Below are positions 27,298-37,504 of a stretch of DNA of 64,000 bases, piece after piece (position 1 is the stretch's first letter; each line of letters opens with the position of its first letter). The notes beneath the pieces were generated by a model. That model did no database searches, was not told the origin of the DNA, and worked only from the letters and a program-made list of their open reading frames with translations. Source of the DNA: Candidatus Omnitrophota bacterium. Lineage in GTDB: Bacteria; Omnitrophota; Gorgyraeia; Gygaellales; Profunditerraquicolaceae. Both the position numbers and the translations under genes were made by a program. The stretch lies in assembly GCA_043800555.1 (NCBI GenBank), contig JAZDMX010000014.1, forward strand, positions 15,001 to 79,000, read 5' to 3'.

Positions 27298-28422
27298 ATG
27301 ATTAATAAAGTTCGCCTTATCAATCTTACCCGTAAGCTTATCCGGATAAATTCCGAAAATCCTCCCGGTAATGAATCGGCTTTGGCTGATTTCGTGCATA
27401 GGTATCTTAAGAAAATGGGCTTAAGGGTGAGGATCTATGAATTTAAGAAAAACCGTTCCAATGTGCTGGCGTATCTGGAAAATCCGGGCAATAAGCGGCA
27501 GATGCTTATCAGCCCGCACCTGGATACGGTTTGCGCCGGAAATAATTGGAAGTTTGACCCTTTTGCGGCCAAGATAGCCGGTGATAAGATTTACGGTTTA
27601 GGCGCAACCGACTGCAAGGGAAACCTGGCGGCTGCCCTGGAAGCGATAAACAGCCTTGTTGAGGATAATAAACGCCTGGATTATGATTTAATCCTTGCGG
27701 CCACCGCGGATGAGGAGTGCGGTTCGGATTTAGGCTTAATTCCTCTTCTGGATAAGGAAATATTGAAGCCCGATGCGGCTTTAGTCCTTGACGCCGATGA
27801 TTTTGAGATTATCATAGCGCAAAAAGGCTTATTGCACCTTAAGGTGAAGATAGAAGGCAAGCGCGCGCATGGCGCGTACCCGCATTTGGGAGTTAACGCT
27901 ATTGATATTGCCTTAGATGCGATAAGAGAGATAAAGAAACATAAATTTTCTTACTCCAGGAATGAATATCTTAAAGCCCCGACCGTTAATACCGGGACCA
28001 TCCGGGGAGGAGACAAGGTCAATATTGTGGCTGACTGGTGCGAATTTGAGTTGGACTTTAGGTTTTTACCCGGGACTAAGCCCGAAAACATATTGGACGC
28101 GCTTAAAGGGATCCTGAAGAAACGCGCCAAAGAATATAAGATAGAGATCGCCAGTATTCAGCAAGCCTACTCAATTTCCGAGAAGCACCCCTTGGTCGGC
28201 TGCCTTAGGAAAGCAATACGCCAGTCCGGGCTAAGCCCCCGCGTTAGCGGTTCGGAGGGAGCGACCGTGATTACGTTTTTCCAGCATAAGAATATTCCGG
28301 CGGTTGCCAGCGGATTTGGTTCTTCCGGTTGCGCGCATATTTCAAACGAATACGCCAAGATCAGCAATCTTTATAAAGGGGCCAAAGTTCTGGAGGCGTT
28401 TTTAGCGAGCTATAAATTTTAA
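27298..28422 (+). CDS. M20-family metallopeptidase or deacylase (ArgE/DapE-like).
   Basis: M20 metal-binding motifs (HLDTV, GATDCKG, ADEE, HG-AYPH). Confidence 0.65.
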   Translation: MINKVRLINLTRKLIRINSENPPGNESALADFVHRYLKKMGLRVRIYEFKKNRSNVLAYLENPGNKRQMLISPHLDTVCAGNNWKFDPFAAKIAGDKIYGLGATDCKGNLAAALEAINSLVEDNKRLDYDLILAATADEECGSDLGLIPLLDKEILKPDAALVLDADDFEIIIAQKGLLHLKVKIEGKRAHGAYPHLGVNAIDIALDAIREIKKHKFSYSRNEYLKAPTVNTGTIRGGDKVNIVADWCEFELDFRFLPGTKPENILDALKGILKKRAKEYKIEIASIQQAYSISEKHPLVGCLRKAIRQSGLSPRVSGSEGATVITFFQHKNIPAVASGFGSSGCAHISNEYAKISNLYKGAKVLEAFLASYKF

Positions 28423-28453
28423 ACAAAGACAGCCTGCAAAAGGAGTAAAGATT

Positions 28454-29422
28454 ATGGAAGGGGTAAAAATCATCAAAAGGCCGCGTTTAAGAAAACCGCA
28501 TTTGATTGTTGCCTGGCCGGGAATGGGAGAAGTTGCTTTTAGGGCGGTTTCTTACCTGATTGAGAAATTGAACGCCGAGGAATTTGCTTCGTTATATGCC
28601 GAAGACTTCTTTTATTTGGCCGGAAGCGTGGTGAAGAACGGGTTGTTGAGCACTTCAGATTTACCGGAGAGCAAATTTTATTTCTGGAAGAATAAAGGAG
28701 GCAAAAACGACCTTATTGTATTTTTGAGCAATGCCCAGCCGGATCTGGCCAGGGCCGAAGGTTACTCCAAGATTATTGTCCAGGTGGCTAAGAGTTTCAA
28801 AGTGGATAAGGTCATCAGTTTTGCTTCTATGCCGCAAGGCATTGATCACGCCCAGGATCCCGAAGTTTGGTTTGCGGCTACTTCCGAAGAGTTAAGCAGC
28901 AGCCTTAAGAAATTCAACCTTAAGAGTTTAAAAGAAGGCCAGATTAGCGGTATGAACGGGCTTTTCCTGGGTATAGCCAAAAGAGAGGGCCTTGACGGGT
29001 TTTGCCTTTTAGGGGAGATCCCGCTTTACACTATCCAGATTGAAAACCCGAAAGCCTCCGGAGCCGTTTTGGAAACCTTGTATACGGTTACGGGCATCCG
29101 GGTTGATTTATCCGGCTTGTCTGCCCAGGCACAAACTATGGAAGATGAAATCAACAAGCTGTTGGACTACCTTAAGCTTGGGCCGGCGGCTAGCGGCCCG
29201 ATTGAAGAAGAAGATATAGAAAAAATCAAGAAAACCTTGAATCAACTCACTAAGCTTCCTGTTTCGGTCAAGGAGAGAATCGAGCAGTTTTTTGCTCAGG
29301 CAAAAACCGATATATCCAAAGCGCGCGAACTTAAAGTCGAGCTGGATAAATGGAACGTTTACAAGGAATACGAAGACAGGTTCCTGGACTTGTTTAAGAA
29401 GACCGGTGAAAAGAACAACTAA
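28454..29422 (+). CDS. PAC2-family (proteasome-assembly-chaperone-like) protein.
   Basis: N-terminal LIVAWPGMGEVA is typical of PAC2/COG1938 proteins, with a C-terminal coiled region. Confidence 0.4.
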   Translation: MEGVKIIKRPRLRKPHLIVAWPGMGEVAFRAVSYLIEKLNAEEFASLYAEDFFYLAGSVVKNGLLSTSDLPESKFYFWKNKGGKNDLIVFLSNAQPDLARAEGYSKIIVQVAKSFKVDKVISFASMPQGIDHAQDPEVWFAATSEELSSSLKKFNLKSLKEGQISGMNGLFLGIAKREGLDGFCLLGEIPLYTIQIENPKASGAVLETLYTVTGIRVDLSGLSAQAQTMEDEINKLLDYLKLGPAASGPIEEEDIEKIKKTLNQLTKLPVSVKERIEQFFAQAKTDISKARELKVELDKWNVYKEYEDRFLDLFKKTGEKNN

Positions 29423-30416
29423 GATATTACTCGGGCATGGAAGCGGCGGAAGGTTAACCCATAATTTTGTTAACCGGGAAATCCTGAAGAAGTTGAAGAA
29501 CCCTATTCTGGAGGAACTGGCTGATGGGGCGGTTATAGACTACAAGGAGAAAACCGCTTTTACCACGGATTCTTTTGTGGTTAGCCCGTTATTTTTCCCC
29601 GGAGGCGATATCGGCAAGCTTTCGGTATCCGGCACGGTTAATGACTTGGTTATGCTGGGGGCTGTCCCGGAGTATCTCTCTTTGGCTTTAATTATAGAGG
29701 AGGGGTTAGAGCAAAAAATCCTTGAAAGGATAATTGATTCCATATCCTTGCAGGCCAAAGCCGCAGGAGTTAAGGTTGTTACCGGAGACACGAAAGTAGT
29801 GGAAAGGCTGGCCGCGGATAAATTATTCATTAATACTTCGGGCCTGGGCAGGTTAGTTTCGCCCAGAAGGCTATCGCTGAAGAATATTTCGCCCGGAGAC
29901 AAAATTATCGTTACCGGAGGAATCGGCGAACATGGCTTAAGCGTGCTTGCCAAAAGAAAAGAATTAAACTTGGGCCTTAACATTAAAAGCGATTGCGCAA
30001 GCCTGAATGGTTTGATTATCCCGCTTTTAAAGGTTACCAGGGGCATAAAATTTATGCGCGATCCGACGCGCGGAGGAGTAGCGACGACCTTGAATGAAAT
30101 TGCCGAAGGCTCGGGTTTGGGGATAGTTATTGAAGAGAAGGATGTCCCGGTGTCTTCCAAAATCAGGGTTGCTTCGGAATTACTGGGTATAGACCCGTTT
30201 TACGTTGCTAATGAAGGAAAGGCGCTGCTCGCCGTAGAGCCTAAAGAAGCGCCAAGGATTGCAGGCCTTTTAAGGAGGCATCCCTTAGGCCGCAACGCCA
30301 AGATTATCGGAACGGTTGTCAAAGAGCCTTCGGGGATGGTTGTCTTGCGCACTCTTTTTAATACCGAACGCGTCCTGGATATGTTAGTTTCCGATCCATT
30401 GCCGAGGATATGTTAA
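29406..30416 (+). CDS. hypE: Hydrogenase maturation factor HypE. The start is probably GTG at 29406; the ORF is open from 29292.
   Basis: ILLGHGSGG N-terminal motif, a PurM-like fold and a C-terminal PRIC (Cys) tail. Confidence 0.8.
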   Translation: MKRTTKILLGHGSGGRLTHNFVNREILKKLKNPILEELADGAVIDYKEKTAFTTDSFVVSPLFFPGGDIGKLSVSGTVNDLVMLGAVPEYLSLALIIEEGLEQKILERIIDSISLQAKAAGVKVVTGDTKVVERLAADKLFINTSGLGRLVSPRRLSLKNISPGDKIIVTGGIGEHGLSVLAKRKELNLGLNIKSDCASLNGLIIPLLKVTRGIKFMRDPTRGGVATTLNEIAEGSGLGIVIEEKDVPVSSKIRVASELLGIDPFYVANEGKALLAVEPKEAPRIAGLLRRHPLGRNAKIIGTVVKEPSGMVVLRTLFNTERVLDMLVSDPLPRIC

Positions 30417-30568
30417 TTATTAAAAGCCGCTAAGCGGTTGCCTTAGAGGCAGATAACAGGCAGCAATTATTAGTTGTAAAATCTGCCTACTAACTATTCC
30501 CCGGCGCCTTAATAATGTTTAAGGGTATTGTTTTTTAGCATAATGCCGGATAAGAAAGAAGGTGAGAG

Positions 30569-31306
30569 GTGAAATCATCAAGATACATGAGGCGTTTTTA
30601 CCGTGACTGGGCCCGGGCCAAGGGCCTTTATTCTTTGCACCTGGCAGCAAAAGAAACCGACCTGCAGATTTTTACCGATAAGCCCGTAAAGGCGGAATTC
30701 ATCGAAGAAAGAATCCGGGCTTATCGTTGGGAAATAGAAAATTATATAAATAAGGACCATCGGTTCCTGACTTCTTTAAAGCCGATTCCGGTTGAGCTTA
30801 ATGCCGCTCCTATTGTAAAGGATATGGCAAGCCAGGCCGGCAAGGCGAATGTCGGGCCAATGAGCACGGTTGCCGGGGCAATAGCTGAATTCCTGGGGAA
30901 AGACCTTCTTGGCGCCGGGTATAAGGAAGTGATAGTCGAGAATGGCGGGGATATTTTCCTGAAATCGCGTAAAATCCGCAAGATTGGGGTATATGTGGGG
31001 CGCTCCAAGATGTGGAATAAATTGCAGCTGGAGATAAAGCCGAAAGATACCCCGTTAGGGATATGCACTTCTTCGGGCACAATGGGCCATTCTTTAAGCT
31101 TTGGCTGCGCAGATAGCGTGGTAATTATTTCCAAAAGCGCAAGCCTGGCGGATAGCGTAGCTACCGCAACAGCCAATCGTATTAATTCAAAAGAAGACCT
31201 GCAGCGGGCCCTTGATTTTGCCCGTTCCGTTAAAGGCGTTTCAGGCGTAGTTATTATTTTAAAGAATAATTTGATTACCTGGGGAAAGGTGGAATTTGTT
31301 CGTTGA
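30569..31306 (+). CDS. UPF0280-like (ApbE-superfamily-like) uncharacterized protein.
   Basis: Gly/Ser-rich core GICTSSGTMGHSLSFGCADSVVII; the assignment is tentative. Confidence 0.3.
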   Translation: MKSSRYMRRFYRDWARAKGLYSLHLAAKETDLQIFTDKPVKAEFIEERIRAYRWEIENYINKDHRFLTSLKPIPVELNAAPIVKDMASQAGKANVGPMSTVAGAIAEFLGKDLLGAGYKEVIVENGGDIFLKSRKIRKIGVYVGRSKMWNKLQLEIKPKDTPLGICTSSGTMGHSLSFGCADSVVIISKSASLADSVATATANRINSKEDLQRALDFARSVKGVSGVVIILKNNLITWGKVEFVR

Positions 31307-31312
31307 AATTTC

Positions 31313-31350
31313 TTGACAATCACAGCGGATTGTGATAAAAAATCATTATA
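31313..31350 (+). promoter_or_regulatory. Promoter with an overlapping palindromic operator-like site.
   Basis: TTGACA followed by ATCACAgcggatTGTGAT (a 6-6-6 inverted repeat), then an A/T-rich -10 region. Confidence 0.3.
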
Positions 31351-31463
31351 AATACAATATTTAGCGTAATTTATTTAGGAGGCGTTAAGCTTAAATTGGA
31401 AAAATAGGCGTAAGCAAGAAAGGCTCTTTCAGGGAACAAAGGGCCTTTTTTTGTAATACAAAT

Positions 31464-32453
31464 ATGAAAACAGTCGGATTAACCTACGATTTGAAAACAG
31501 ATTATGAATTTAAGGATGGCGATCCTCTGGATGCCAACGCCGAATTCGACCATCCTTCGACTATTGATGTCATTGCCGAGGCAATTGAGTCAAATGGTTT
31601 TAAGGTAAACAGGATAGGAAACGCCGGAAACCTCCTGGAAAAATTATCTTCTTTAAAAGCGGACATTGTTTTTAATATTTCCGAAGGAGTGACCGGGAGG
31701 AACCGTGAATCCCAGGTGCCGATATTGCTTGAGATGGCCGGAATCCCTTTTGTCGGTTCCGACGCCTTGACCCTGGGGCTTACCCTGGATAAGGTGGTAG
31801 CCAAAAAGATTTTTATCGCCGATAAGATACCTACCCCGAAATTCATCGAAGCAGGTTCAGCCGATGAATTAGCGGACACCAATCATTATAAGTTTCCTCT
31901 AATCGTAAAGCCGCGCTTTGAAGGCTCTTCCAAGGGTTTAAGCGAAAGTTCCCGCGTAGAGAATAAAGACGATTTGCTTAAGCAGGTGGAATATATTGTT
32001 AATACCTATAAACAACCGGCTTTGGTCGAAGAATTCATATCCGGGCAGGAATTTACCGTGGCCTTGGTGGGAAACGACCCCGTGGAAGTCCTGCCGGTCG
32101 TTCAAATCAAAATCGACGGAAAACTAAAATTAAACGATAAGTTCTATACTTTCGCCCGGATCACCTCCGACAGGTTAGAGTATATTTGCCCGGCGAAAAT
32201 CCCGCAAGAATTAAAGAAAAAAATAGACGAACTGGCCTTAAGGACTTATAGGGCTGTAGATTGCTGCGATTTTGGCCGCGTGGATTTTCGCGTAGATAGC
32301 GAAGGCAAGCCTTATGTATTGGAAATCAATCCTTTGCCGTCTCTTTCTACGGAAGATGTCTTTAAGCTTTTGGCCGAGAATACAGGGATCACTTACGAAC
32401 AGATGATCGGCAAAATTTTAAACAGCGCGATTAAAAGGCATAATATAAATTAG
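31464..32453 (+). CDS. D-Ala-D-Ala-ligase-like ATP-grasp enzyme, paralog 1.
   Basis: Ddl-family N-terminal and central ATP-grasp motifs (FNISEG..G, KPRFEGSSKG, EEFISGQEFTV, LEINPLPSLS). Confidence 0.65.
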   Translation: MKTVGLTYDLKTDYEFKDGDPLDANAEFDHPSTIDVIAEAIESNGFKVNRIGNAGNLLEKLSSLKADIVFNISEGVTGRNRESQVPILLEMAGIPFVGSDALTLGLTLDKVVAKKIFIADKIPTPKFIEAGSADELADTNHYKFPLIVKPRFEGSSKGLSESSRVENKDDLLKQVEYIVNTYKQPALVEEFISGQEFTVALVGNDPVEVLPVVQIKIDGKLKLNDKFYTFARITSDRLEYICPAKIPQELKKKIDELALRTYRAVDCCDFGRVDFRVDSEGKPYVLEINPLPSLSTEDVFKLLAENTGITYEQMIGKILNSAIKRHNIN

Positions 32454-32479
32454 CGGATAAAGGCGTTCGTAAGGATAGC

Positions 32480-33481
32480 ATGAAAATAGCTTTAACTTAT
32501 AACCTAAAAAAGAAAGACGCGACAAAACCGGAGGATTATTTCTCGGAGTGCGACAGCGAAGAGACCGTTGACGCCATTGCCGGAGCTATCCGGAGAAAAG
32601 GCCATAACGTCGAGGCGATAGACGTGGAATACCCCAAACTTTTTTCATATTTCAAGGAAAATTCCGTGGATATGGTTTTTAATATTGCCGAAGGCAAATC
32701 CGGTAAATTCCGCGAGTCAGAGGTTCCGGCAATATTGGACTATTTAAATATCCCCTATACGGGTTCGGATACATTTTCGCTGGCCTTAGCCTTAAATAAG
32801 GCCCTTACGAAGAAGATCCTAAAAGCCGAAAATATCCCCACGCCGAATTTCCAAGTTTTCTTTAAAGGCACGGAAGAATTGGACCCGGAGTTAAAATTCC
32901 CCTTAATCGTAAAACCGAATTGTGAAGGTTCGGCTAAAGGCATAAGCAGGGCCAATGTGGTCTGTAACGCGCCGGATTTATTTAAGAGGGTGAAAGAAAC
33001 GCTTGATATATACAAACAGGAAGCGCTTGTGGAAGAATTTATTGAGGGCAAAGAGCTTACCGTCGGAATATTGGAAAACGGGAAGACCCGCGTCCTGCCG
33101 ATTTTAGAAATTGATTTCTCCAGCTGCATCAATAGCGGAGAATATTTTTATTCCTGGAAGATGAAGGAATACCAGGGCAATGAAGCATTGGGGTTGGTGC
33201 CGAGTTTCCACTGCCCGGCGCGCCTTGACCCGGAAACCGAAAAGGCAGTCAAAGAGGCAGCGCTTAGGACCCACCGCGCGGTAGGCTGCCTGGATATCTC
33301 GCGCACCGACATACGCCTGGATAAATTTAATGTGCCTTATGTTTTGGAGATCAACCCTTTGCCGGGGCTAGACCCTAAAGAATCTAATTTCCCGATTATG
33401 GCGTATGCCGCGGGAATGCAATACGAAGATCTTATTGAGGCAATAATCCTAAGCGCCTCGGAAAGGAAAGGATTAAATTGA
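32480..33481 (+). CDS. D-Ala-D-Ala-ligase-like ATP-grasp enzyme, paralog 2.
   Basis: Same architecture as 31464..32453 (FNIAEGKSG, KPNCEGSAKG, EEFIEGKELTV, LEINPLPGLD). Confidence 0.65.
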   Translation: MKIALTYNLKKKDATKPEDYFSECDSEETVDAIAGAIRRKGHNVEAIDVEYPKLFSYFKENSVDMVFNIAEGKSGKFRESEVPAILDYLNIPYTGSDTFSLALALNKALTKKILKAENIPTPNFQVFFKGTEELDPELKFPLIVKPNCEGSAKGISRANVVCNAPDLFKRVKETLDIYKQEALVEEFIEGKELTVGILENGKTRVLPILEIDFSSCINSGEYFYSWKMKEYQGNEALGLVPSFHCPARLDPETEKAVKEAALRTHRAVGCLDISRTDIRLDKFNVPYVLEINPLPGLDPKESNFPIMAYAAGMQYEDLIEAIILSASERKGLN

Positions 33482-34665
33482 GCAGCGTCCAGGCAATTGA
33501 AAATCAAAAATTGCAGCAGGAAAACGCTACTGTTGTTAAGCCGGCCAGGCGCCCGCGGGATTACCAGCAGATAAGTATCTATAAAGATGTCAACCCTTTG
33601 GACTGGGAAGACTGGCAGTGGCAGATAAAAAACAGGATTTGCACAAAAGACATCCTTTCACAAATCATTAATTTAACTGCCGACGAGGAAAAGGGCATAG
33701 ATAAAGCTAAAGGCAGGTTATCCATGGCCGTAACTCCTTATTGGGGTTCGCTTCTTGACCCTGATGACGCAAATTGCCCGATCCGGCGCCAGGCTGTCCC
33801 GGTGGTCCAGGAGTCAATTGTTACTCCGCATGAAATGACTGACCCTTGCGCAGAAGACAGGGATTCTCCCGCTCCGCATTTAGTGCACCGTTATCCGGAC
33901 AGGGTTTTATTATTGGCGACCGACCACTGCGCTATGTATTGCCGCCATTGCACGCGCAGGCGGCTGGTCGGAGACCATGAGGCAAAAGACTCGACAAGCG
34001 CCTCCAGGTTCGACGCAGCCATCGAATACATAAAAGCCAACCGTAAGATCAGGGACGTGCTGATATCCGGAGGAGACCCGTTAATCCTGGAAGACGGAGA
34101 ACTAGAAAGCCTGCTTCAGAAAATCCGGGCCATATCGCACGTGGAATTCTTAAGGATCGGCACGCGCATACCGGTTACGCTTCCCCAGCGCATTACGGAG
34201 AATTTGGTGAATATGCTGAAAAAATATTCTCCGGTCTGGATGAGCATACATTTTAATCATCCGAAAGAAATCACCAAGCGCTGCAAGATAGCTTGCGATA
34301 TGCTGTCGGAATCCGGGGTCCCTTTAGGGAGCCAGACCGTCCTTTTAAAAGGCGTTAATGACCGGCCTTTCATTATGAAAAAGCTGGTCCATGAATTATT
34401 GCAGATAAGGGTTAGGCCTTATTATATTTACCAGTGCGATCCGGTCCGCGGCACGCAGCATTTCAGGACTCCCGTAGCCACCGGGATCAATATTATGGAA
34501 AAGTTGCGCGGGCATACTTCCGGATACGCTGTCCCTACTTATGTCATAGACGGCCCCGGCGGCGGCGGCAAGATCCCCGTTGGGCCGAATTATATTCTTT
34601 CACAGGCCAAAGGGAAATACGTCTTGCGTAACTATACGGGCAAGATCTACACCTACCTAGAATAG
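33478..34665 (+). CDS. kamA: Lysine 2,3-aminomutase (KamA family radical SAM).
   Basis: CAMYCRHCTRRR radical-SAM cluster motif, a KamA N-terminal region, and the C-terminal GGGGK motif. Confidence 0.8.
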   Translation: MSSVQAIENQKLQQENATVVKPARRPRDYQQISIYKDVNPLDWEDWQWQIKNRICTKDILSQIINLTADEEKGIDKAKGRLSMAVTPYWGSLLDPDDANCPIRRQAVPVVQESIVTPHEMTDPCAEDRDSPAPHLVHRYPDRVLLLATDHCAMYCRHCTRRRLVGDHEAKDSTSASRFDAAIEYIKANRKIRDVLISGGDPLILEDGELESLLQKIRAISHVEFLRIGTRIPVTLPQRITENLVNMLKKYSPVWMSIHFNHPKEITKRCKIACDMLSESGVPLGSQTVLLKGVNDRPFIMKKLVHELLQIRVRPYYIYQCDPVRGTQHFRTPVATGINIMEKLRGHTSGYAVPTYVIDGPGGGGKIPVGPNYILSQAKGKYVLRNYTGKIYTYLE

Positions 34666-34764
34666 GGTATATACGCCTAGGCGCACGCAAGGCATAAATA
34701 GCCTTCGATAATTTCTCTTTGCCTCCACCTTGGCCGTTATTTTCTTAGCTGGGGAATTAACGCT

Positions 34765-36720
34765 ATGGATGCTAAGAATAAGCGCAATTTTATCCTCTTA
34801 GGCCATGCCCAGTCAGGCAAAACCAGCCTTGCCGAAAGCATACTTTATTTTTCTAAGGCCACTACCCGTAAAGGCAGCATAGAGGGCGGTTCAACCGTCA
34901 GCGACTATGGCTTTGACGAGATTGAGAAAAAACATTCTATAAATCTAAGCTTGCTCTTTTGTGATTATAAGGGGTTCCGTTTTCAGTTCATTGACACTCC
35001 CGGTTACGCGGATTTCTTAGGCGAAGTTATCTCCGGGGCGCGTTCCGTAGACAGCGCGATTATCATAGTGGATGCCGTAAGCGGGCCGCAGGCAGGGACG
35101 CAGCGTGCCTGGGATATATGCGAGCAAGCCGGTATCCCGTGCATGATTTTTATCAATAAGATGGATAAGGAAGGCGCCGGCTTAAATAAGGCGTTAGCGG
35201 ATTTAAAATCCGCTTTTTCCAGAAACTGCGTTATAATCCAATCTTTGGAAGATTCGCTTCTGGTGGAGGCGATTGTTGAAACCGACGACAGCCTGCTGGA
35301 GAAATACCTTTCGGCTTTACAGCTTTCTATGGAGGAGATTGAAAACGGATTGACTAGCGCCGTGAATAAGCGCAAGATTTTTCCGGTTTTCTCGGGTTCG
35401 GCGCTTGCCGATAAAGGGCTTTCGGATTTATTGGATGGCATCCTGCGGTATCTGCCCAGCCCTTTGGATAGAAACCCCGTAAAGGCATTTGATCCTCTGA
35501 GGCCGGAGCAAGCCAAAGAGGTGATTTTAAAAGAGGAGGCGCCTTTCTCGGCCCTTGTTTTTAAAAACATCTCGGATCCTTTCGTGGGCCAGCTCACTTT
35601 GTTGCGCGTTTTCTCCGGTAAGCTTTTAAGCAATAGCGGTTTCTATAACGTTAGCCGGAAACTAAAAGAGAGGATCGGCCCTATTTATATTTTGCAGGGT
35701 AAAGAGCAGCGTTTAATTGAGGCTGCCGGCTGCGGCGACATTGTCGCTATCGCCAAATTGAAGGATACGGGGGTTTCAGATTCTCTTTCCGGGGATAAAG
35801 AGCAATTTTTATTTGAGCCTCTTGTCTTTCCGCCAGAAGCGATATCCGCTTCGGTCAAGCCTAAATCCCGCGAAGATGAAGAAAAGATTTCCGATGCCCT
35901 GCATAAGCTTGCGGCGGAAGACCATACCTTCAGGGTGAGGCATGACCCTCAAACCAGGGAATTGATTATTTCTGGCCTGGGCGACTTGCATTTATCGGTT
36001 ATGGTCGCCCGCATGAGAAAAAGGTTTAATGTTGCGGTTGAATTAGGAACGCCCAAAGTTTCTTATCAAGAGACTATTACTAAGAGCGTTAAGGCCCAGG
36101 GTAAATTTAAGCGTCAGTCCGGCGGCCGCGGCCAATACGGCGACTGTTGGATTGAAGTTTGCCCTTTGGAGAGAGGGAAGGGCCTGGAATTTGTTGACAA
36201 AATATTTGGAGGCGCTATCCCGCGCAACTTTATTCCTTCTGTTGAGAAAGGGGTGCGCCAGGCAGCCGCGGAAGGCGCGGTCGCGGGGTTCCCGGTTGAA
36301 GATATCCGGGTGAGTTTGGTTGACGGCTCCTACCATGAAGTCGACTCTTCAGATATGGCTTTTCAGATTGCCGGAGCTATGGCCTTACGCAAGGCTGTTA
36401 TGGGGGCCGGCCCTGTTTTATTAGAGCCGTTAATGGACGCGGAGATCAGTATTCCGGAAGATTGCCTGGGGGTTATTTCCGGGGACATTAATTCCCGCCG
36501 CGGCAGGGTAATAGGAATGGAGATAAAGGGTAAACAACAAATCGTAAAGGCCCAGGTCCCGCTAGCGGAAATGTTGAAATACGCCAATGACCTGCGTTCG
36601 ATAACCGGAGGCCGCGGGACATATACGATGCGATTCTCGCATTATGAAGAGGCGCCGCATAAAGTTGCCTCCCCGGTTATTGCCCAGTATCAAGACTCGA
36701 AAAAACAGGAAGAACAGTAG
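34765..36720 (+). CDS. Divergent EF-G-family translational GTPase (EF-G paralog).
   Basis: G1 GHAQSGKTS, G3 DTPGYADF and G4 NKMD, plus EF-G domains II-V; 651 aa. Confidence 0.6.
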   Translation: MDAKNKRNFILLGHAQSGKTSLAESILYFSKATTRKGSIEGGSTVSDYGFDEIEKKHSINLSLLFCDYKGFRFQFIDTPGYADFLGEVISGARSVDSAIIIVDAVSGPQAGTQRAWDICEQAGIPCMIFINKMDKEGAGLNKALADLKSAFSRNCVIIQSLEDSLLVEAIVETDDSLLEKYLSALQLSMEEIENGLTSAVNKRKIFPVFSGSALADKGLSDLLDGILRYLPSPLDRNPVKAFDPLRPEQAKEVILKEEAPFSALVFKNISDPFVGQLTLLRVFSGKLLSNSGFYNVSRKLKERIGPIYILQGKEQRLIEAAGCGDIVAIAKLKDTGVSDSLSGDKEQFLFEPLVFPPEAISASVKPKSREDEEKISDALHKLAAEDHTFRVRHDPQTRELIISGLGDLHLSVMVARMRKRFNVAVELGTPKVSYQETITKSVKAQGKFKRQSGGRGQYGDCWIEVCPLERGKGLEFVDKIFGGAIPRNFIPSVEKGVRQAAAEGAVAGFPVEDIRVSLVDGSYHEVDSSDMAFQIAGAMALRKAVMGAGPVLLEPLMDAEISIPEDCLGVISGDINSRRGRVIGMEIKGKQQIVKAQVPLAEMLKYANDLRSITGGRGTYTMRFSHYEEAPHKVASPVIAQYQDSKKQEEQ

Positions 36721-36802
36721 GCTTTCGATAAAGAATGTAGCGGGCGTTTGGGATTTCGCTGCCATATCAAGAGAAGTGCCTCTGTAAGATGAAAAGGACA
36801 AA

Positions 36803-37504
36803 ATGAAAATAAGCGCAGTTGGTTTACCGGAATTAAACCCCGGAAAGCATAATGTCAAGGATTCTCGTTTGGACCAGGTGGATAGCATAACTTGCGCCAA
36901 GAAAAAAACCTATATTCAAGTTGAGCTTGTTTCAGAGGAAGGGGTAATTGACGCAAACGCGGTCATTACCGCCAAAGATTCGGCCGCCGACCTTATTCTT
37001 AAAGACCTTGAATTTGTGGAAACGCGCCTTTCGCGTTCGGCGGATGAGGCTGAAAAGGCTTTATTTAATAAGCTAAAAGCGGCCCTGGAAAAAGAAGAGT
37101 TCCTGTTTAATGCGGGGCTTACGGAAACAGAGAAGAAAGAGCTGGTTAAATATGGCTTACTTACCGCAAAGCCGGTTATTATCGCGGAGGCAAAAGACCT
37201 GGAAGACAAAAACGCCCTCCTGCTTAAAGCTTTAAGAGAAAGCGGTTTTATCAGTTTTTTCACTACCGGAGAGAAAGATACCCGGGCCTGGCTCATAAGA
37301 AATGGCGCTAATGCCTGGGAAGCCTCGGGAGCGATACATTCGGATATCCAACAGGGGTTTATCCGGGCAGAGATTATCTCTTTCAGGGATTTTATGGAGT
37401 GCGGCGGAGAGAATAAAGCCAAGCAGGCGGGTAAGATGCGCCTGGAGCCCAAAGAATATATAATGCAAGACTGCGATTTAGCGAACTTCAGGTTTAATAA
37501 ATAA
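36803..37504 (+). CDS. YchF-like protein lacking the G-domain core (degenerate P-loop).
   Basis: The C-terminus matches the YchF TGS region (TTGEKDTRAW...QQGFIRAEIISF...KMRLEPKEYI). The N-terminus ISAVGLPELNPGKHN replaces GIVGLPNVGKST. It is about 130 aa shorter than YchF. Confidence 0.55.
   Translation: MKISAVGLPELNPGKHNVKDSRLDQVDSITCAKKKTYIQVELVSEEGVIDANAVITAKDSAADLILKDLEFVETRLSRSADEAEKALFNKLKAALEKEEFLFNAGLTETEKKELVKYGLLTAKPVIIAEAKDLEDKNALLLKALRESGFISFFTTGEKDTRAWLIRNGANAWEASGAIHSDIQQGFIRAEIISFRDFMECGGENKAKQAGKMRLEPKEYIMQDCDLANFRFNK

What the first reader, a model, noticed from the sequence alone, without database searches (positions are those of the whole stretch)
31307..34665. Two paralogous Ddl-like ATP-grasp ligases in tandem immediately upstream of lysine 2,3-aminomutase
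Seen: 31464..32453 and 32480..33481 are clear paralogs of the D-Ala-D-Ala ligase ATP-grasp family. They are followed, with a 4-nt overlap, by a KamA-family radical SAM enzyme (CAMYCRHCTRRR).

Established: KamA makes beta-lysine, and Ddl-family enzymes ligate amino acids.

Inference: the cassette could make a beta-lysine-containing dipeptide or oligomer, for example an osmolyte or a modification moiety. That differs from the known Nε-acetyl-beta-lysine (AblAB) and EF-P beta-lysylation (EpmAB) systems.

A palindromic operator-like site (ATCACAgcggatTGTGAT) overlaps the promoter at 31313..31350, and a hairpin plus T7 tract sits just before the first start codon.
Basis: partly seen in the sequence, partly recalled or inferred. 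Interest (0 to 1): 0.6.

Follow-up and report, generated by a model that had tools for sequence, protein, structure and literature searches.

The report
Beta-lysine peptide ligase operon
An uncultivated Omnitrophota bacterium carries an operon pairing a lysine 2,3-aminomutase with two enzymes derived from the cell-wall D-Ala-D-Ala ligase; the same pairing recurs, sometimes fused into one protein, across many anaerobic bacteria and archaea, and probably makes an undescribed beta-lysine-containing compound.

Summary
AG1 (31464..32453) and AG2 (32480..33481) are 41% identical paralogs with a Ddl-like ATP-grasp fold. A KamA-family radical SAM gene (33478..34665) overlaps AG2 by 4 nt.

- **Not cell-wall Ddl.** Both ligases score below NCBIfam Ddl cut-offs. 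They keep the ATP/Mg/acyl-phosphate residues but have an altered substrate site (His63→Glu and Glu68→Arg invariant in the family sample; Tyr216 lost).
- **KamA.** It keeps every lysine 2,3-aminomutase substrate and cofactor residue but lacks the zinc site and C-terminal domain.
- **Linkage is conserved.** It is seen in 52/52 informative Omnitrophota loci and 17 of 24 loci from other bacterial phyla and Bathyarchaeia. More than 100 protein clusters are KamA–ligase fusions, mostly from archaea that have no murein.
- **Best reading.** Lysine is converted to beta-lysine, then ligated with ATP into a small beta-lysine amide or peptide. The product is unknown.
- **Palindrome.** The "operator" palindrome is not conserved.
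- **Leader.** The hairpin plus T7 is part of a conserved leader dedicated to this operon: promoter, GGAGG, TTGGAAAAA mini-ORF, terminator. It looks like an attenuator.

I found no published description. I rate it a new variant of a known kind, of moderately high interest.

The parts
31313..31358 (+). Promoter region. TTGACA (31313-18), a 17-nt spacer, then TGaTAAAAA (31333-41). An overlapping TTGTGA-17-TACAAT alternative lies at 31330-58.
   Evidence: Sequence; scan. TTGACA and TTGTGATAAAAAA are conserved at a fixed distance from the terminator in about 35 Omnitrophota loci.
31319..31336 (.). Palindrome ATCACA-N6-TGTGAT in the promoter spacer. It is probably not an operator.
   Evidence: Present. 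The left arm is not conserved in L001, L015, L019, L023 and L027-L029. The right arm coincides with the extended -10 element.
31378..31407 (+). Conserved leader core. GGAGG (31378-82), a 13-nt spacer, then TTG GAA AAA TAG (31396-31407), a mini-ORF encoding M-E-K-stop.
   Evidence: The pattern occurs once in the window and only at this position in the loci. A metagenome scan found 65 copies, each followed by an AG1 homologue. Of 103 unique variants, 77 have a 3-8-codon ORF beginning MEK, MKK or MGK.
31416..31452 (+). Intrinsic-terminator-like hairpin (arms 31416-29 and 31438-51; core GGCTCTTT/AAAGGGCC) followed by T7 (31446-52). The T-run ends 11 nt before the AG1 start codon.
   Evidence: (z = -2.8). 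It is the only consensus structure in the alignment of 30 leaders, with one covarying pair. The stem GGGCTC/GAGCCC is conserved in 103 variants.
31464..32453 (+). AG1: Ddl-derived ATP-grasp ligase of clade I, 329 aa. It is predicted to be catalytically competent, with an altered substrate site.
32480..33481 (+). AG2: paralogous Ddl-derived ATP-grasp ligase of clade II, 333 aa. Clade II is the clade that is fused to KamA in archaea.
33478..34665 (+). KamA-family radical SAM/PLP lysine 2,3-aminomutase, short form, 395 aa. Key residues: C151/C155/C158, R160, D321, D358, K365. It has no zinc site and no C-terminal domain.

Best explanation
The three genes form one operon for a short pathway built around beta-lysine.

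**Step 1 (strong homology inference).** The KamA-like enzyme uses a [4Fe-4S] cluster, SAM and PLP to move the alpha-amino group of free L-lysine to C3. This gives beta-lysine.

**Step 2 (inferred).** AG1 and AG2 descend from D-Ala-D-Ala ligase and keep its chemistry: ATP phosphorylates a carboxylate, and an amine attacks the acyl phosphate. Their substrate pocket has been rebuilt with an extra invariant Glu and Arg. They are proposed to join beta-lysine to a partner amino acid or amine, possibly a second beta-lysine or lysine. Two sequential or alternative ligations would then give a small beta-lysine-containing amide or oligopeptide. The product and its role (compatible solute, polycation, or exported metabolite) are unknown.

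**Regulation (inferred).** In Omnitrophota the operon is transcribed from a conserved promoter through a dedicated leader about 100 nt long that ends in an intrinsic terminator. Read-through is probably governed by a ribosome on a tiny M-E-K... upstream ORF that stops just before the hairpin.
For: **Operon structure**
- The AG1-AG2 gap is 26 nt and AG2/KamA overlap by 4 nt.

**KamA**
- 481 bits to C. subterminale LAM (PDB 2A5H). CxxxCxxC, Arg134, Asp293, Asp330 and Lys337 are all conserved.
- Across 84 ligase-linked homologues, the three cluster Cys and Arg134 are kept in all 84, and Asp293, Asp330 and Lys337 in 81 each.
- TIGR03820 scores 521 against a cut-off of 525. The Glu-, Arg- and EpmB-type models score far below their cut-offs.

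**Ligases**
- Full-length Ddl fold: pLDDT 95, TM about 0.8 to Ddl structures.
- The equivalents of K97, K144, S150, E180, E187, R255, D257, E270, N272 and E15 are conserved in both AG1 and AG2.
- H63→E and E68→R are invariant in the 28-sequence family alignment. Y216 is lost, and S281→D in AG1.

**Conserved linkage**
- KamA lies next to the ligase in 52/52 Omnitrophota loci that extend far enough.
- It also does so in 17 of 24 loci from Desulfobacterota, Syntrophales, Dehalococcoidia/Chloroflexota, Bacteroidota (Kryptonia), Bacillota and Bathyarchaeia.
- The ligase and KamA are the only gene families shared across these phyla.

**Fusions**
- KamA–ligase fusions of about 700 aa make up more than 100 clusters, on contigs up to 654 kb. 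They come from Thermoplasmatota, Woesearchaeota, Nanoarchaeota, Methanocellales, Spirochaetales and Deltaproteobacteria.
- One ligase–KamA fusion was seen in the opposite order.
- About 45 of the 150 best family representatives are ligase–ligase tandems.

**Accessory genes pointing to a small amine-bearing metabolite**
- GNAT, in one case fused to a ligase; an HDAC-type deacetylase; MFS and MarC membrane proteins; MscL and ion exchangers.

**Leader**
-.
Against: - No biochemical datum exists for any member of this ligase family. The partner substrate, the number of residues joined and the direction of ligation (beta-lysine as acyl donor or as amine) are all unknown.
- No single ligase clade is universal. 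Lineages carry I alone, I+II, I+III, II+III or I+II+III, so products may differ between lineages.
- Four or five Bacillota loci have the ligase with no KamA within 8 kb.
- The osmolyte idea sits oddly with freshwater and groundwater Omnitrophota.
- In Omnitrophota an EF-G paralog always lies nearby, so a translation-related role is not excluded.
- The leader mechanism is conjecture. The SD-TTG spacing of 12-15 nt is long, and 26 of 103 variants have long ORFs instead of mini-ORFs.
Confidence: 0.6

Rival explanations
1. Ordinary cell-wall D-Ala-D-Ala ligases, duplicated, that merely sit beside a lysine-fermentation or osmolyte kamA. On this view there is no functional link.
For: The best Pfam, NCBIfam and PDB matches are all Ddl. 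The catalytic residues are intact.
Against: - Scores of 189 and 196 fall below the Ddl cut-offs of 243-246.
- His63, Glu68 and Tyr216 are replaced, as is Ser281 in AG1. The N-terminal 35-60 residues do not align to any Ddl.
- The genes are not in a mur/dcw context.
- The family, fused to KamA, is common in Thermoplasmatota, DPANN and Bathyarchaeia. These archaea have no murein (my knowledge, not a tool result).
- Linkage to KamA holds across phyla.
- No lysine-fermentation genes lie next to the cassette in any locus.
Confidence: 0.03
2. The ligases attach beta-lysine to a macromolecule. Candidates are a protein (for example a translation factor, by analogy with EF-P beta-lysylation) or an envelope precursor (by analogy with the ATP-grasp D-aspartate ligase that builds peptidoglycan cross-bridges).
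For: - In Omnitrophota an EF-G paralog and a YchF-C-domain protein follow KamA in most loci.
- The KamA is a short form without the zinc/C-terminal domain. EpmB is also a short form (the EpmB comparison is from my knowledge).
Against: - The EF-G/YchF linkage stops at the phylum border, and upstream synteny is conserved in the same way. It is therefore phylum synteny, not a functional module.
- Insertions of 1-5 kb separate KamA and EF-G in L009, L014, L019, L028 and L075.
- The KamA resembles AblA/LAM far more than EpmB (521 vs 246 bits).
- The Ddl fold, with its omega-loop region retained, is a closed small-molecule site (inference).
- The envelopes of the host lineages are too diverse for one common envelope target.
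Confidence: 0.12
3. The ligases polymerise beta-lysine, alone or with a second residue, into an oligo- or poly-amide. Possible roles are nitrogen storage or a polycation, made in the manner of cyanophycin synthetase or RimK, or resembling the beta-lysine chains of streptothricins.
For: - One to three ligase paralogs occur per locus, and tandem ligase fusions are frequent.
- The ancestral Ddl reaction joins two identical molecules, so a beta-Lys + beta-Lys reaction is a short evolutionary step (inference).
- GNAT and deacetylase neighbours suit free-amine polycations.
Against: - Ddl-clade enzymes are known to make dipeptides or depsipeptides, not polymers (my knowledge).
- The profile is far from cyanophycin synthase (E about 1e-5, against 1e-51 for Ddl). 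RimK is not among the 60 best of 97 matches listed there.
- No primer or carrier gene is conserved.
Confidence: 0.12
4. The order of steps is reversed. The ligases first make a lysine-containing dipeptide, and the KamA-like enzyme then isomerises the lysyl residue within it.
For: - In fusion proteins either domain order occurs.
- The short KamA lacks the C-terminal domain, so its active-site access could differ.
Against: All residues that hold free lysine in LAM are conserved: Arg134 for the alpha-carboxylate, and Asp293 and Asp330 for the epsilon-ammonium. The residue roles are from my knowledge. This argues for free L-lysine as the substrate.
Confidence: 0.08

Closest known systems
D-alanine-D-alanine ligase (DdlA/DdlB) and the VanA/B/C/G ligases
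   Same: Same three-domain ATP-grasp fold (TM about 0.8). Same ATP/Mg/acyl-phosphate residues and the same Glu15-equivalent amino-group ligand. These are by far the closest solved structures and profiles.
   Different: - Only 23-28% identity, and below the family cut-offs.
- A distinctive N-terminal segment (LTYxLK...DxxAEFD).
- His63→Glu and Glu68→Arg invariant; Tyr216 lost.
- Not in a cell-wall gene context.
- Present in archaea that have no murein.
- Genetically coupled or fused to KamA.
AblA/AblB, the N-epsilon-acetyl-beta-lysine osmolyte pathway of methanogens and some bacteria
   Same: - Step 1 is the same enzyme type; AblA is the best-scoring NCBIfam equivalog (521 bits).
- Both modify beta-lysine by amide formation.
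- Some lineages add a GNAT to the cassette.
   Different: - The partner is an ATP-grasp ligase (one to three of them), not the AblB acetyltransferase.
- The GNATs found are generic and RimI-like. TIGR03827 AblB scores only 17.7 bits against a cut-off of 205.
- The KamA lacks the zinc/C-terminal domain.
EpmA/EpmB (PoxA/YjeK), EF-P beta-lysylation
   Same: A short KamA-family aminomutase supplies beta-lysine to an ATP-dependent ligase.
   Different: - The ligase there is a lysyl-tRNA-synthetase paralog that acts on a protein. No such gene is present here.
- The EpmB model scores 246 against a cut-off of 369.
PylB/PylC in pyrrolysine biosynthesis
   Same: The logic is the same. A radical SAM enzyme rearranges L-lysine, and an ATP-grasp ligase then joins the rearranged amino acid through an amide bond, in that case to the epsilon-amine of a second lysine (my knowledge).
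   Different: - PylB is not a KamA-family or PLP enzyme (my knowledge).
- No PylC structure appears in the sequence search (40 matches), among the 60 best of 97 profile matches, or among the 50 Foldseek matches shown.
- No PylD is present.
Ngg (N-acetylglutaminylglutamine amide synthase) and carnosine synthase
   Same: - These are ATP-grasp enzymes that make small dipeptide metabolites.
- Ngg is a GNAT + ATP-grasp fusion that makes an osmolyte. This matches the ligase-GNAT fusion in L086.
- Carnosine synthase activates a beta-amino acid (my knowledge).
   Different: They belong to different ATP-grasp clades, use different substrates, and involve no aminomutase.

Membership tests
D-alanine-D-alanine ligase (EC 6.3.2.4) | ATP-grasp fold with the Dala_Dala_lig_C domain and the catalytic residues K97, K144, E180, E187, R255, D257, E270, N272 | tested here: met
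   Pfam E = 6e-39 and 9e-36. Foldseek TM about 0.8. All these residues are conserved in AG1 and AG2.
D-alanine-D-alanine ligase (EC 6.3.2.4) | Score above the curated family cut-off | tested here: not met
   NF002378 scores 189.3 (AG1) and 196.5 (AG2) against a cut-off of 243. TIGR01205 scores 164 and 163 against 245.65.
D-alanine-D-alanine ligase (EC 6.3.2.4) | Intact D-Ala sites: the Glu15-Ser150-Tyr216 triad, His63, Lys215, Ser281/Leu282 | tested here: not met
   - Glu15 and Ser150 are kept.
- His63→Glu is invariant in the family sample.
- Tyr216→Thr/Ile in AG1 and Glu in AG2.
- Lys215→Ile/Arg in AG1.
- Ser281→Asp in AG1.
- The roles of these residues are from my knowledge of the DdlB structures.
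D-alanine-D-alanine ligase (EC 6.3.2.4) | Occurs in murein-containing organisms, typically in a mur/dcw context | tested here: not met
   - The neighbours here are a UPF0280/ApbE-like gene, KamA and an EF-G paralog.
- The family occurs in Bathyarchaeia, Thermoplasmatota and DPANN.
Lysine 2,3-aminomutase (KamA/AblA) | CxxxCxxC radical SAM cluster motif and the PLP-binding Lys337 | tested here: met
   C151/C155/C158 and K365 align to C125/C129/C132 and K337 of 2A5H.
Lysine 2,3-aminomutase (KamA/AblA) | Lysine-binding residues Arg134, Asp293 and Asp330 (replaced in glutamate 2,3-aminomutase) | tested here: met
   R160, D321 and D358 are present. Among 84 ligase-linked homologues, Arg134 is kept in all 84 and each Asp in 81.
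Lysine 2,3-aminomutase (KamA/AblA) | Equivalog score cut-off (TIGR03820) and family cut-off (TIGR00238) | tested here: inconclusive
   TIGR03820 scores 521.2 against 525.4, a narrow miss; the match ends at position 360 of the 417-position model. TIGR00238 (KamA family) scores 348 against 199 and is met.
Lysine 2,3-aminomutase (KamA/AblA) | Zinc site (Cys268 plus three C-terminal Cys) and the C-terminal oligomerisation domain of clostridial LAM | tested here: not met
   Cys268 is Arg296 here. The protein ends at the equivalent of LAM residue 367. Cys268 is kept in none of the 84 ligase-linked homologues. The zinc ligand identities are from my knowledge.
AblAB N-epsilon-acetyl-beta-lysine system | AblB-type GNAT acetyltransferase adjacent to the aminomutase | tested here: not met
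   No GNAT lies in or next to the operon in the window. GNATs in other lineages are generic: TIGR03827 scores 17.7 against 205.
EpmAB EF-P beta-lysylation system | EpmB-type aminomutase together with the EpmA LysRS paralog | tested here: not met
   TIGR03821 scores 245.6 against 369.3. The annotated genes flanking the operon (27298-37504) include no aminoacyl-tRNA-synthetase-like gene, and none is among the families shared by the non-Omnitrophota loci. The rest of the genome was not visible.
PylC-type or L-amino-acid-ligase (BacD/RizA/TabS) ATP-grasp enzymes | Closest sequence or profile similarity to those families | tested here: not met
   The profile gives E = 1e-51 to Ddl but only 3.5e-14 to the L-amino-acid ligase BL00235. 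PylC is not among the 60 matches listed.
Transcription attenuator (leader with intrinsic terminator) | GC-rich hairpin plus U-tract between the promoter and the first gene, conserved and specific to the operon | tested here: met
   All 65 leader copies with downstream sequence precede an AG1 homologue.
Transcription attenuator (leader with intrinsic terminator) | A defined sensing element: an alternative antiterminator helix, a riboswitch aptamer or a regulatory leader peptide | tested here: inconclusive
   - No Rfam family matched (best E = 0.055, far below gathering score).
- No conserved helix other than the terminator.
- A GGAGG plus TTG mini-ORF (MEK...) ends 0-15 nt before the hairpin in 77 of 103 variants, but is long in 26.

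The most novel reading that the evidence does not exclude
KamA plus one to three Ddl-derived ligases (with or without a GNAT) is a widespread, so far unrecognised pathway of anaerobic, mostly uncultivated bacteria and archaea. Hosts include Omnitrophota, DPANN, Thermoplasmatota, Bathyarchaeia and Dehalococcoidia. It would make a new class of beta-lysine-containing peptides, such as beta-lysyl dipeptides or short oligo-beta-lysines serving as solute or polycation. In Omnitrophota it would be switched by a new kind of mini-ORF/terminator attenuator that may read lysine supply through the invariant Lys codon.
Probability: 0.4. Interest if true: 0.72.

Novelty: new variant of a known kind. Interest (0 to 1): 0.62.

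Why it matters
**Known fates of beta-lysine.** As far as I know, there are four:
- an acetylated osmolyte (AblAB);
- the EF-P modification (EpmAB);
- a lysine-fermentation intermediate;
- a building block added by NRPS-type enzymes in antibiotics.

**What would be new.** A conserved, often fused pairing with Ddl-derived ligases would add a fifth route, an ATP-grasp route. It would also give a function to a large ligase family: 1,154 clusters at 50% identity score below E = 1e-30. Genome annotation currently labels these proteins "D-alanine-D-alanine ligase" or "ATP-grasp domain-containing protein".

**Annotation consequence.** The mislabelling matters most in archaea and candidate phyla, where a "Ddl" call can be misread as evidence for peptidoglycan.

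**Testability.** The pathway has only three genes, so it can be tested directly by anaerobic heterologous expression.

**The leader.** It is a compact candidate for a new ribosome-dependent attenuator.

Tried and rejected
**Searches and tests that gave nothing**
- **Riboswitch.** Rfam at E ≤ 10 on 30900-31700 gave only chance-level hits to terminator-containing families. RNAalifold on 30 leaders found no helix other than the terminator.
- **Palindrome as operator.** Rejected after comparison with relatives.
- **Leader regulon.** I looked for the leader upstream of other genes. There are no other copies in the window or in 83 loci. The 8 non-AG1 hits in the metagenome scan lack the terminator and are chance matches.
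- **Extra conserved partners.** I looked for a conserved carrier protein, transporter or peptidase across phyla. None is shared; only lineage-specific neighbours exist.
- **Literature.** Eight full-text searches combined KamA / lysine 2,3-aminomutase / beta-lysine with ATP-grasp, Ddl, ligase, osmolyte or the host taxa. None found a description of this pairing. Three apparent hits were read and were irrelevant.

**Technical failures and limits**
- The first genome scan, with the 28-sequence alignment, failed for lack of a conserved stretch. It was repeated with 9 sequences.

**Readings rejected**
- **N-terminal extension of AG1.** An ATT codon at 31395 opens a frame continuous with AG1. I rejected it because the distance from terminator to ATG varies from 28 to 305 nt among relatives.
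- **Glutamate or arginine 2,3-aminomutase.** Rejected on residue identity and model scores.

Full report
**1. What is in the sequence**

The window comes from a Candidatus Omnitrophota metagenome-assembled genome. The AG1 protein is 100% identical to an NCBI "ATP-grasp domain-containing protein" from that phylum.
- AG1: 31464..32453, 329 aa.
- AG2: 32480..33481, 333 aa.
- KamA-family gene: 33478..34665, 395 aa, TTG start.

The KamA start overlaps the AG2 stop by 4 nt (TTGA). AG1 and AG2 are separated by 26 nt. The three genes therefore look like one operon. AG1 and AG2 are 41% identical (E = 4e-77). Both carry the Dala_Dala_lig_C ATP-grasp domain (E = 6e-39 and 9e-36). No further paralog lies in the 64 kb.

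**2. The aminomutase**

The third protein aligns over 364 residues with Clostridium subterminale lysine 2,3-aminomutase (PDB 2A5H, 481 bits). The following residues are conserved (LAM numbering in brackets):
- the cluster motif C151-x3-C155-x2-C158 (C125/C129/C132);
- R160 (Arg134, which binds the substrate carboxylate);
- D321 and D358 (Asp293 and Asp330, which hold the epsilon-ammonium of lysine and are replaced in glutamate 2,3-aminomutase);
- K365 (Lys337, the PLP lysine).

The residue roles come from my knowledge of the LAM literature.

NCBIfam ranks the models as follows:

| Model | Score | Cut-off |
|---|---|---|
| AblA-type lysine 2,3-aminomutase (TIGR03820) | 521.2 | 525.4 |
| Glutamate 2,3-aminomutase | 477 | 650 |
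| Arginine 2,3-aminomutase | 412 | 600 |
| EpmB | 246 | 369 |

The narrow miss on TIGR03820 arises because the protein stops at the equivalent of LAM residue 367. It therefore lacks the C-terminal domain with its three zinc-binding cysteines. The fourth zinc ligand, Cys268, is Arg296 here.

I aligned 84 KamA homologues that sit beside, or are fused to, this kind of ligase. All 84 keep the three cluster Cys and Arg134. Asp293, Asp330 and Lys337 are each kept in 81. None keeps Cys268. This is a distinct "short" lysine 2,3-aminomutase clade whose substrate should still be free L-lysine.

**3. The ligases are derived from Ddl but are not Ddl**

Evidence that they share the Ddl fold:
- An AlphaFold model of AG1 is confident (pLDDT 95.4).
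- Its best solved-structure matches are all Ddl (TM about 0.8, 23-26% identity).
- A family profile hits Ddl/Van ligases at E = 1e-51 to 1e-19. It hits the L-amino-acid ligase BL00235 only at 3.5e-14. PurD, biotin carboxylases, GshAB and cyanophycin synthase come in at 1e-10 to 1e-5.
- PylC does not appear in that list.

Evidence that they are not Ddl:
- Both proteins fall below the curated Ddl cut-offs: 189 and 196 against 243, and 164 and 163 against 246.
- The first 35-60 residues match no Ddl.

Mapping onto E. coli DdlB gives this picture:
- **Kept:** the ATP, Mg and acyl-phosphate machinery (K97, K144, S150, E180, E187, R255, D257, E270, N272) and the Glu15 amino-group ligand. These are retained in AG1, in AG2 and throughout a 28-sequence family alignment. 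Both enzymes should therefore be active ligases.
- **Changed:** His63→Glu and Glu68→Arg, both invariant in that alignment; Lys181→Glu; Tyr216→Thr/Ile in AG1 and Glu in AG2; Ser281→Asp in AG1.
- **Added:** a 14-residue insertion with an invariant Asp (D23) precedes the Glu15 equivalent.

More acidic groups around the first substrate site fit a diamino acid such as beta-lysine. That last point is inference only.

**4. The linkage is conserved far beyond this genome**

A scan of one genome per GTDB species returned 80 loci. I annotated them by tblastn.
- **Omnitrophota.** Among the 56 loci of Omnitrophota type, every one of the 52 with enough sequence has KamA directly after the ligase or ligases.
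- **One or two ligases.** The nearer relatives carry AG1-AG2-KamA. About 16 more distant Omnitrophota carry AG1-KamA only.
- **Other phyla.** Seventeen of the 24 remaining loci also pair the ligase (usually two paralogs) with KamA, in varying gene orders. They come from Desulfobacterota/Deltaproteobacteria, Syntrophales, Dehalococcoidia/Chloroflexota, Bacteroidota (Kryptonia), Bacillota and Bathyarchaeia.
- **Exceptions.** Four or five Bacillota loci have a ligase and no KamA within 8 kb.
- **Shared families.** All-against-all clustering of neighbouring ORFs found only two families shared across phyla: the ligase and KamA.

**5. Gene fusions**

An exhaustive search of 1.84 billion cluster representatives found 1,154 relatives below E = 1e-30.
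- About 45 of the best 150 are proteins of 550-790 aa with two ligase modules in tandem.
- Three are fusions with KamA, in both orders.
- Searching with one KamA-ligase fusion returned more than 100 further 90%-identity clusters with the same architecture. They sit on contigs up to 654 kb.
- The fusions that carry an NCBI name are called "KamA family radical SAM protein". Their source organisms include Thermoplasmatota, Woesearchaeota, Nanoarchaeota, Methanocellales, Spirochaetales and Deltaproteobacteria.

The fusions are therefore real, and they tie the two activities into one pathway. These archaea have no murein (my knowledge). Their abundance among the hosts excludes a peptidoglycan role for the family as a whole.

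Four fusion loci were inspected:

| Locus | Gene arrangement | Notable neighbours |
|---|---|---|
| L084 | [KamA-ligase][ligase][ligase] | MFS transporters |
| L085 | [KamA-ligase][ligase] | MscL and cation exchangers |
| L086 | [KamA-ligase][ligase-GNAT fusion] | none noted |
| L087 | [KamA-ligase][ligase][ligase] | none noted |

Other lineage-specific neighbours:
- In Syntrophales and Kryptonia, a small generic GNAT sits between the second ligase and KamA.
- In Dehalococcoidia, a histone-deacetylase-family protein and a MarC membrane protein follow.
- In one Bacillota locus, an MFS transporter precedes.

These accessories suit a small metabolite that carries amines. The evidence from them is weak.

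**6. Three old ligase clades**

A neighbour-joining tree rooted on E. coli DdlB separates three clades. The method is crude and there are no support values.
- **Clade I:** AG1, with the first ligase of Deltaproteobacteria, Dehalococcoidia, Syntrophales and Bacillota.
- **Clade II:** AG2, with the ligase domain of the KamA fusions and the first ligase of Bathyarchaeia.
- **Clade III:** the second ligases of most non-Omnitrophota loci.

Lineages hold I alone, I+II, I+III, II+III or all three. AG2 is therefore not a recent copy of AG1. The number of ligation steps probably differs between lineages.

**7. Most likely mechanism**

- **Step 1 (strong homology inference).** L-lysine is converted to beta-lysine by the short KamA.
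- **Step 2 (inferred from fold, retained catalytic residues, fusions and synteny).** One or more ATP-dependent amide ligations involve beta-lysine.
- **Order of steps.** Because the free-lysine ligands are kept, the aminomutase most likely acts first on free lysine.
- **Not determinable here.** Whether beta-lysine is the acyl donor (as beta-alanine is in carnosine synthase) or the amine. What the partner is; a second beta-lysine or lysine would be the smallest change from the ancestral D-Ala + D-Ala reaction. Whether AG1 and AG2 act in series or as a heteromer.
- **Closest analogy.** The logic is closest to PylB/PylC: a radical SAM rearrangement of lysine followed by an ATP-grasp amide bond. 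Where a GNAT is present, it also resembles AblAB and Ngg.

I put 0.6 on "small beta-lysine-containing amide or peptide". Macromolecule modification and polymer formation each get about 0.12, reversed order about 0.08, and plain Ddl about 0.03.

**8. The upstream region**

*Promoter and palindrome*
- The promoter is good: TTGACA at 31313-18, a 17-nt spacer, then TGaTAAAAA. An overlapping alternative is TTGTGA-17-TACAAT.
- The palindrome ATCACA-N6-TGTGAT lies in the spacer.
- Its left arm is not conserved in L001, L015, L019, L023 or L027-L029. Its right arm is just the conserved extended -10 element.
- I do not regard it as an operator.

*The conserved leader*
- The hairpin plus T7 belongs to a conserved leader.
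- In about 35 Omnitrophota genomes the order and spacing are fixed: TTGACA, then GGAGG 63-73 nt later, TTGGAAAAA at 81-90 nt, and a GGGCTC/GAGCCC hairpin with a T-run at 133-142 nt.
- This spacing holds whatever gene lies upstream.
- A pattern scan of the metagenome collection returned 80 loci. In 65 an AG1 homologue starts within 500 nt. In 7 the contig ends. The other 8 are GC-rich chance matches without a terminator.
- All 27 leader loci with at least 2.5 kb downstream carry AG1-AG2-KamA.
- The leader is therefore dedicated to this operon.

*Read-through is required*
- In the window the T-run ends 11 nt before an ATG that has no Shine-Dalgarno sequence.
- Expression must therefore come from read-through of the terminator.

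*What senses the signal*
- No Rfam family matches.
- No helix other than the terminator is conserved. A riboswitch is therefore unlikely.
- GGAGG lies 12-15 nt before a TTG that opens a mini-ORF. In 77 of 103 distinct leaders the ORF has 3-8 codons: MEKIG 27, MEK 20, and others beginning MEK, MKK or MGK.
- Its stop lies 0-15 nt before the hairpin. In the other 26 leaders the ORF runs through the hairpin.
- A ribosome at or near that stop would cover the 5' arm of the terminator. A translation-dependent attenuator is thus a reasonable guess, perhaps reading lysine supply through the invariant AAA codon.
- It remains a guess, and I list it as unexplained.

**9. Known or new**

Eight full-text searches found no paper that describes a KamA plus Ddl-like ligase pairing or an ATP-grasp beta-lysine ligase. 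Neither Pfam nor NCBIfam has a specific model, and NCBI names the proteins generically. The library lacks most subscription journals, so absence of a hit is not proof. Both enzyme superfamilies and the type of chemistry are well known. The pairing, the ligase subfamily, the likely product class and the leader are not. I therefore rate the finding a new variant of a known kind, with interest 0.62.

Noticed in passing
window 31313-31455; also L001-L037, L075, L089-L168: A conserved leader of about 100 nt, specific to this operon: promoter, GGAGG, TTGGAAAAA mini-ORF, terminator. It matches no Rfam family and has no conserved helix except the terminator. It is a candidate ribosome-dependent attenuator of a new type.
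   Followed up: partly
window 34765-36720 (+): An EF-G paralog of 651 aa. NF009381 scores 813 bits, but TIGR00484 EF-G scores 618, below its cut-off of 659, and about 40 residues are missing after the G domain. It follows KamA in most Omnitrophota loci but not outside the phylum. It is not in a str-operon context.
   Followed up: partly
window 36803-37504 (+): A 233-aa protein in which only the C-terminal 84 residues match YchF (the YchF-GTPase_C/DUF933 domain). No GTPase domain is detected. It is syntenic with the EF-G paralog across Omnitrophota.
   Followed up: no
window 27298-31306 (+): A conserved upstream block: an M20 ArgE/DapE-type deacylase, a PAC2 (proteasome-assembly-chaperone-like) protein, an AIR-synthase-related (PurM/HypE-like) protein, and a UPF0280/ApbE-like protein (NF003323, 262 bits against a cut-off of 271). 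The mechanical ORF for the AIRS gene (TTG at 29292) overlaps PAC2. Homologues suggest the real start is near 29410.
   Followed up: no
L001 11996-13179: In this closely related genome (about 80% identity) the KamA gene is split into three frames, and the called gene is only 339 aa. This is either a frameshifted pseudogene or an assembly error. An extra 284-aa ORF lies between it and EF-G.
   Followed up: no
L086 8261-9871; L073 9993-10499; L077 10034-10519; L071 11117-12856: Lineage-specific accessories of the cassette. These are a ligase-GNAT fusion (from the KamA-ligase fusion family whose named members are mostly Thermoplasmatota), small RimI-like GNATs (Syntrophales, Kryptonia), and a 579-aa histone-deacetylase-family protein (Dehalococcoidia). 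They hint at an acetylation/deacetylation cycle on the product.
   Followed up: partly
L058, L060, L068, L076 (Bacillota): Clade I/II ligases with no KamA within 8 kb. In L058 and L060 they sit beside a conserved 360-400-aa protein with no Pfam match. These ligases may use another substrate or imported beta-lysine.
   Followed up: no
L006-L008, L015-L017, L022-L023, L030-L031, L033, L038, L040-L041, L043-L045, L047, L055-L057, L075 (record titles): Several genomes that share this Omnitrophota-type synteny at 50-82% protein identity are deposited as 'Planctomycetales', 'Planctomycetia', 'Margulisiibacteriota' or 'Elusimicrobia'. Their taxonomic labels are probably unreliable.
   Followed up: no
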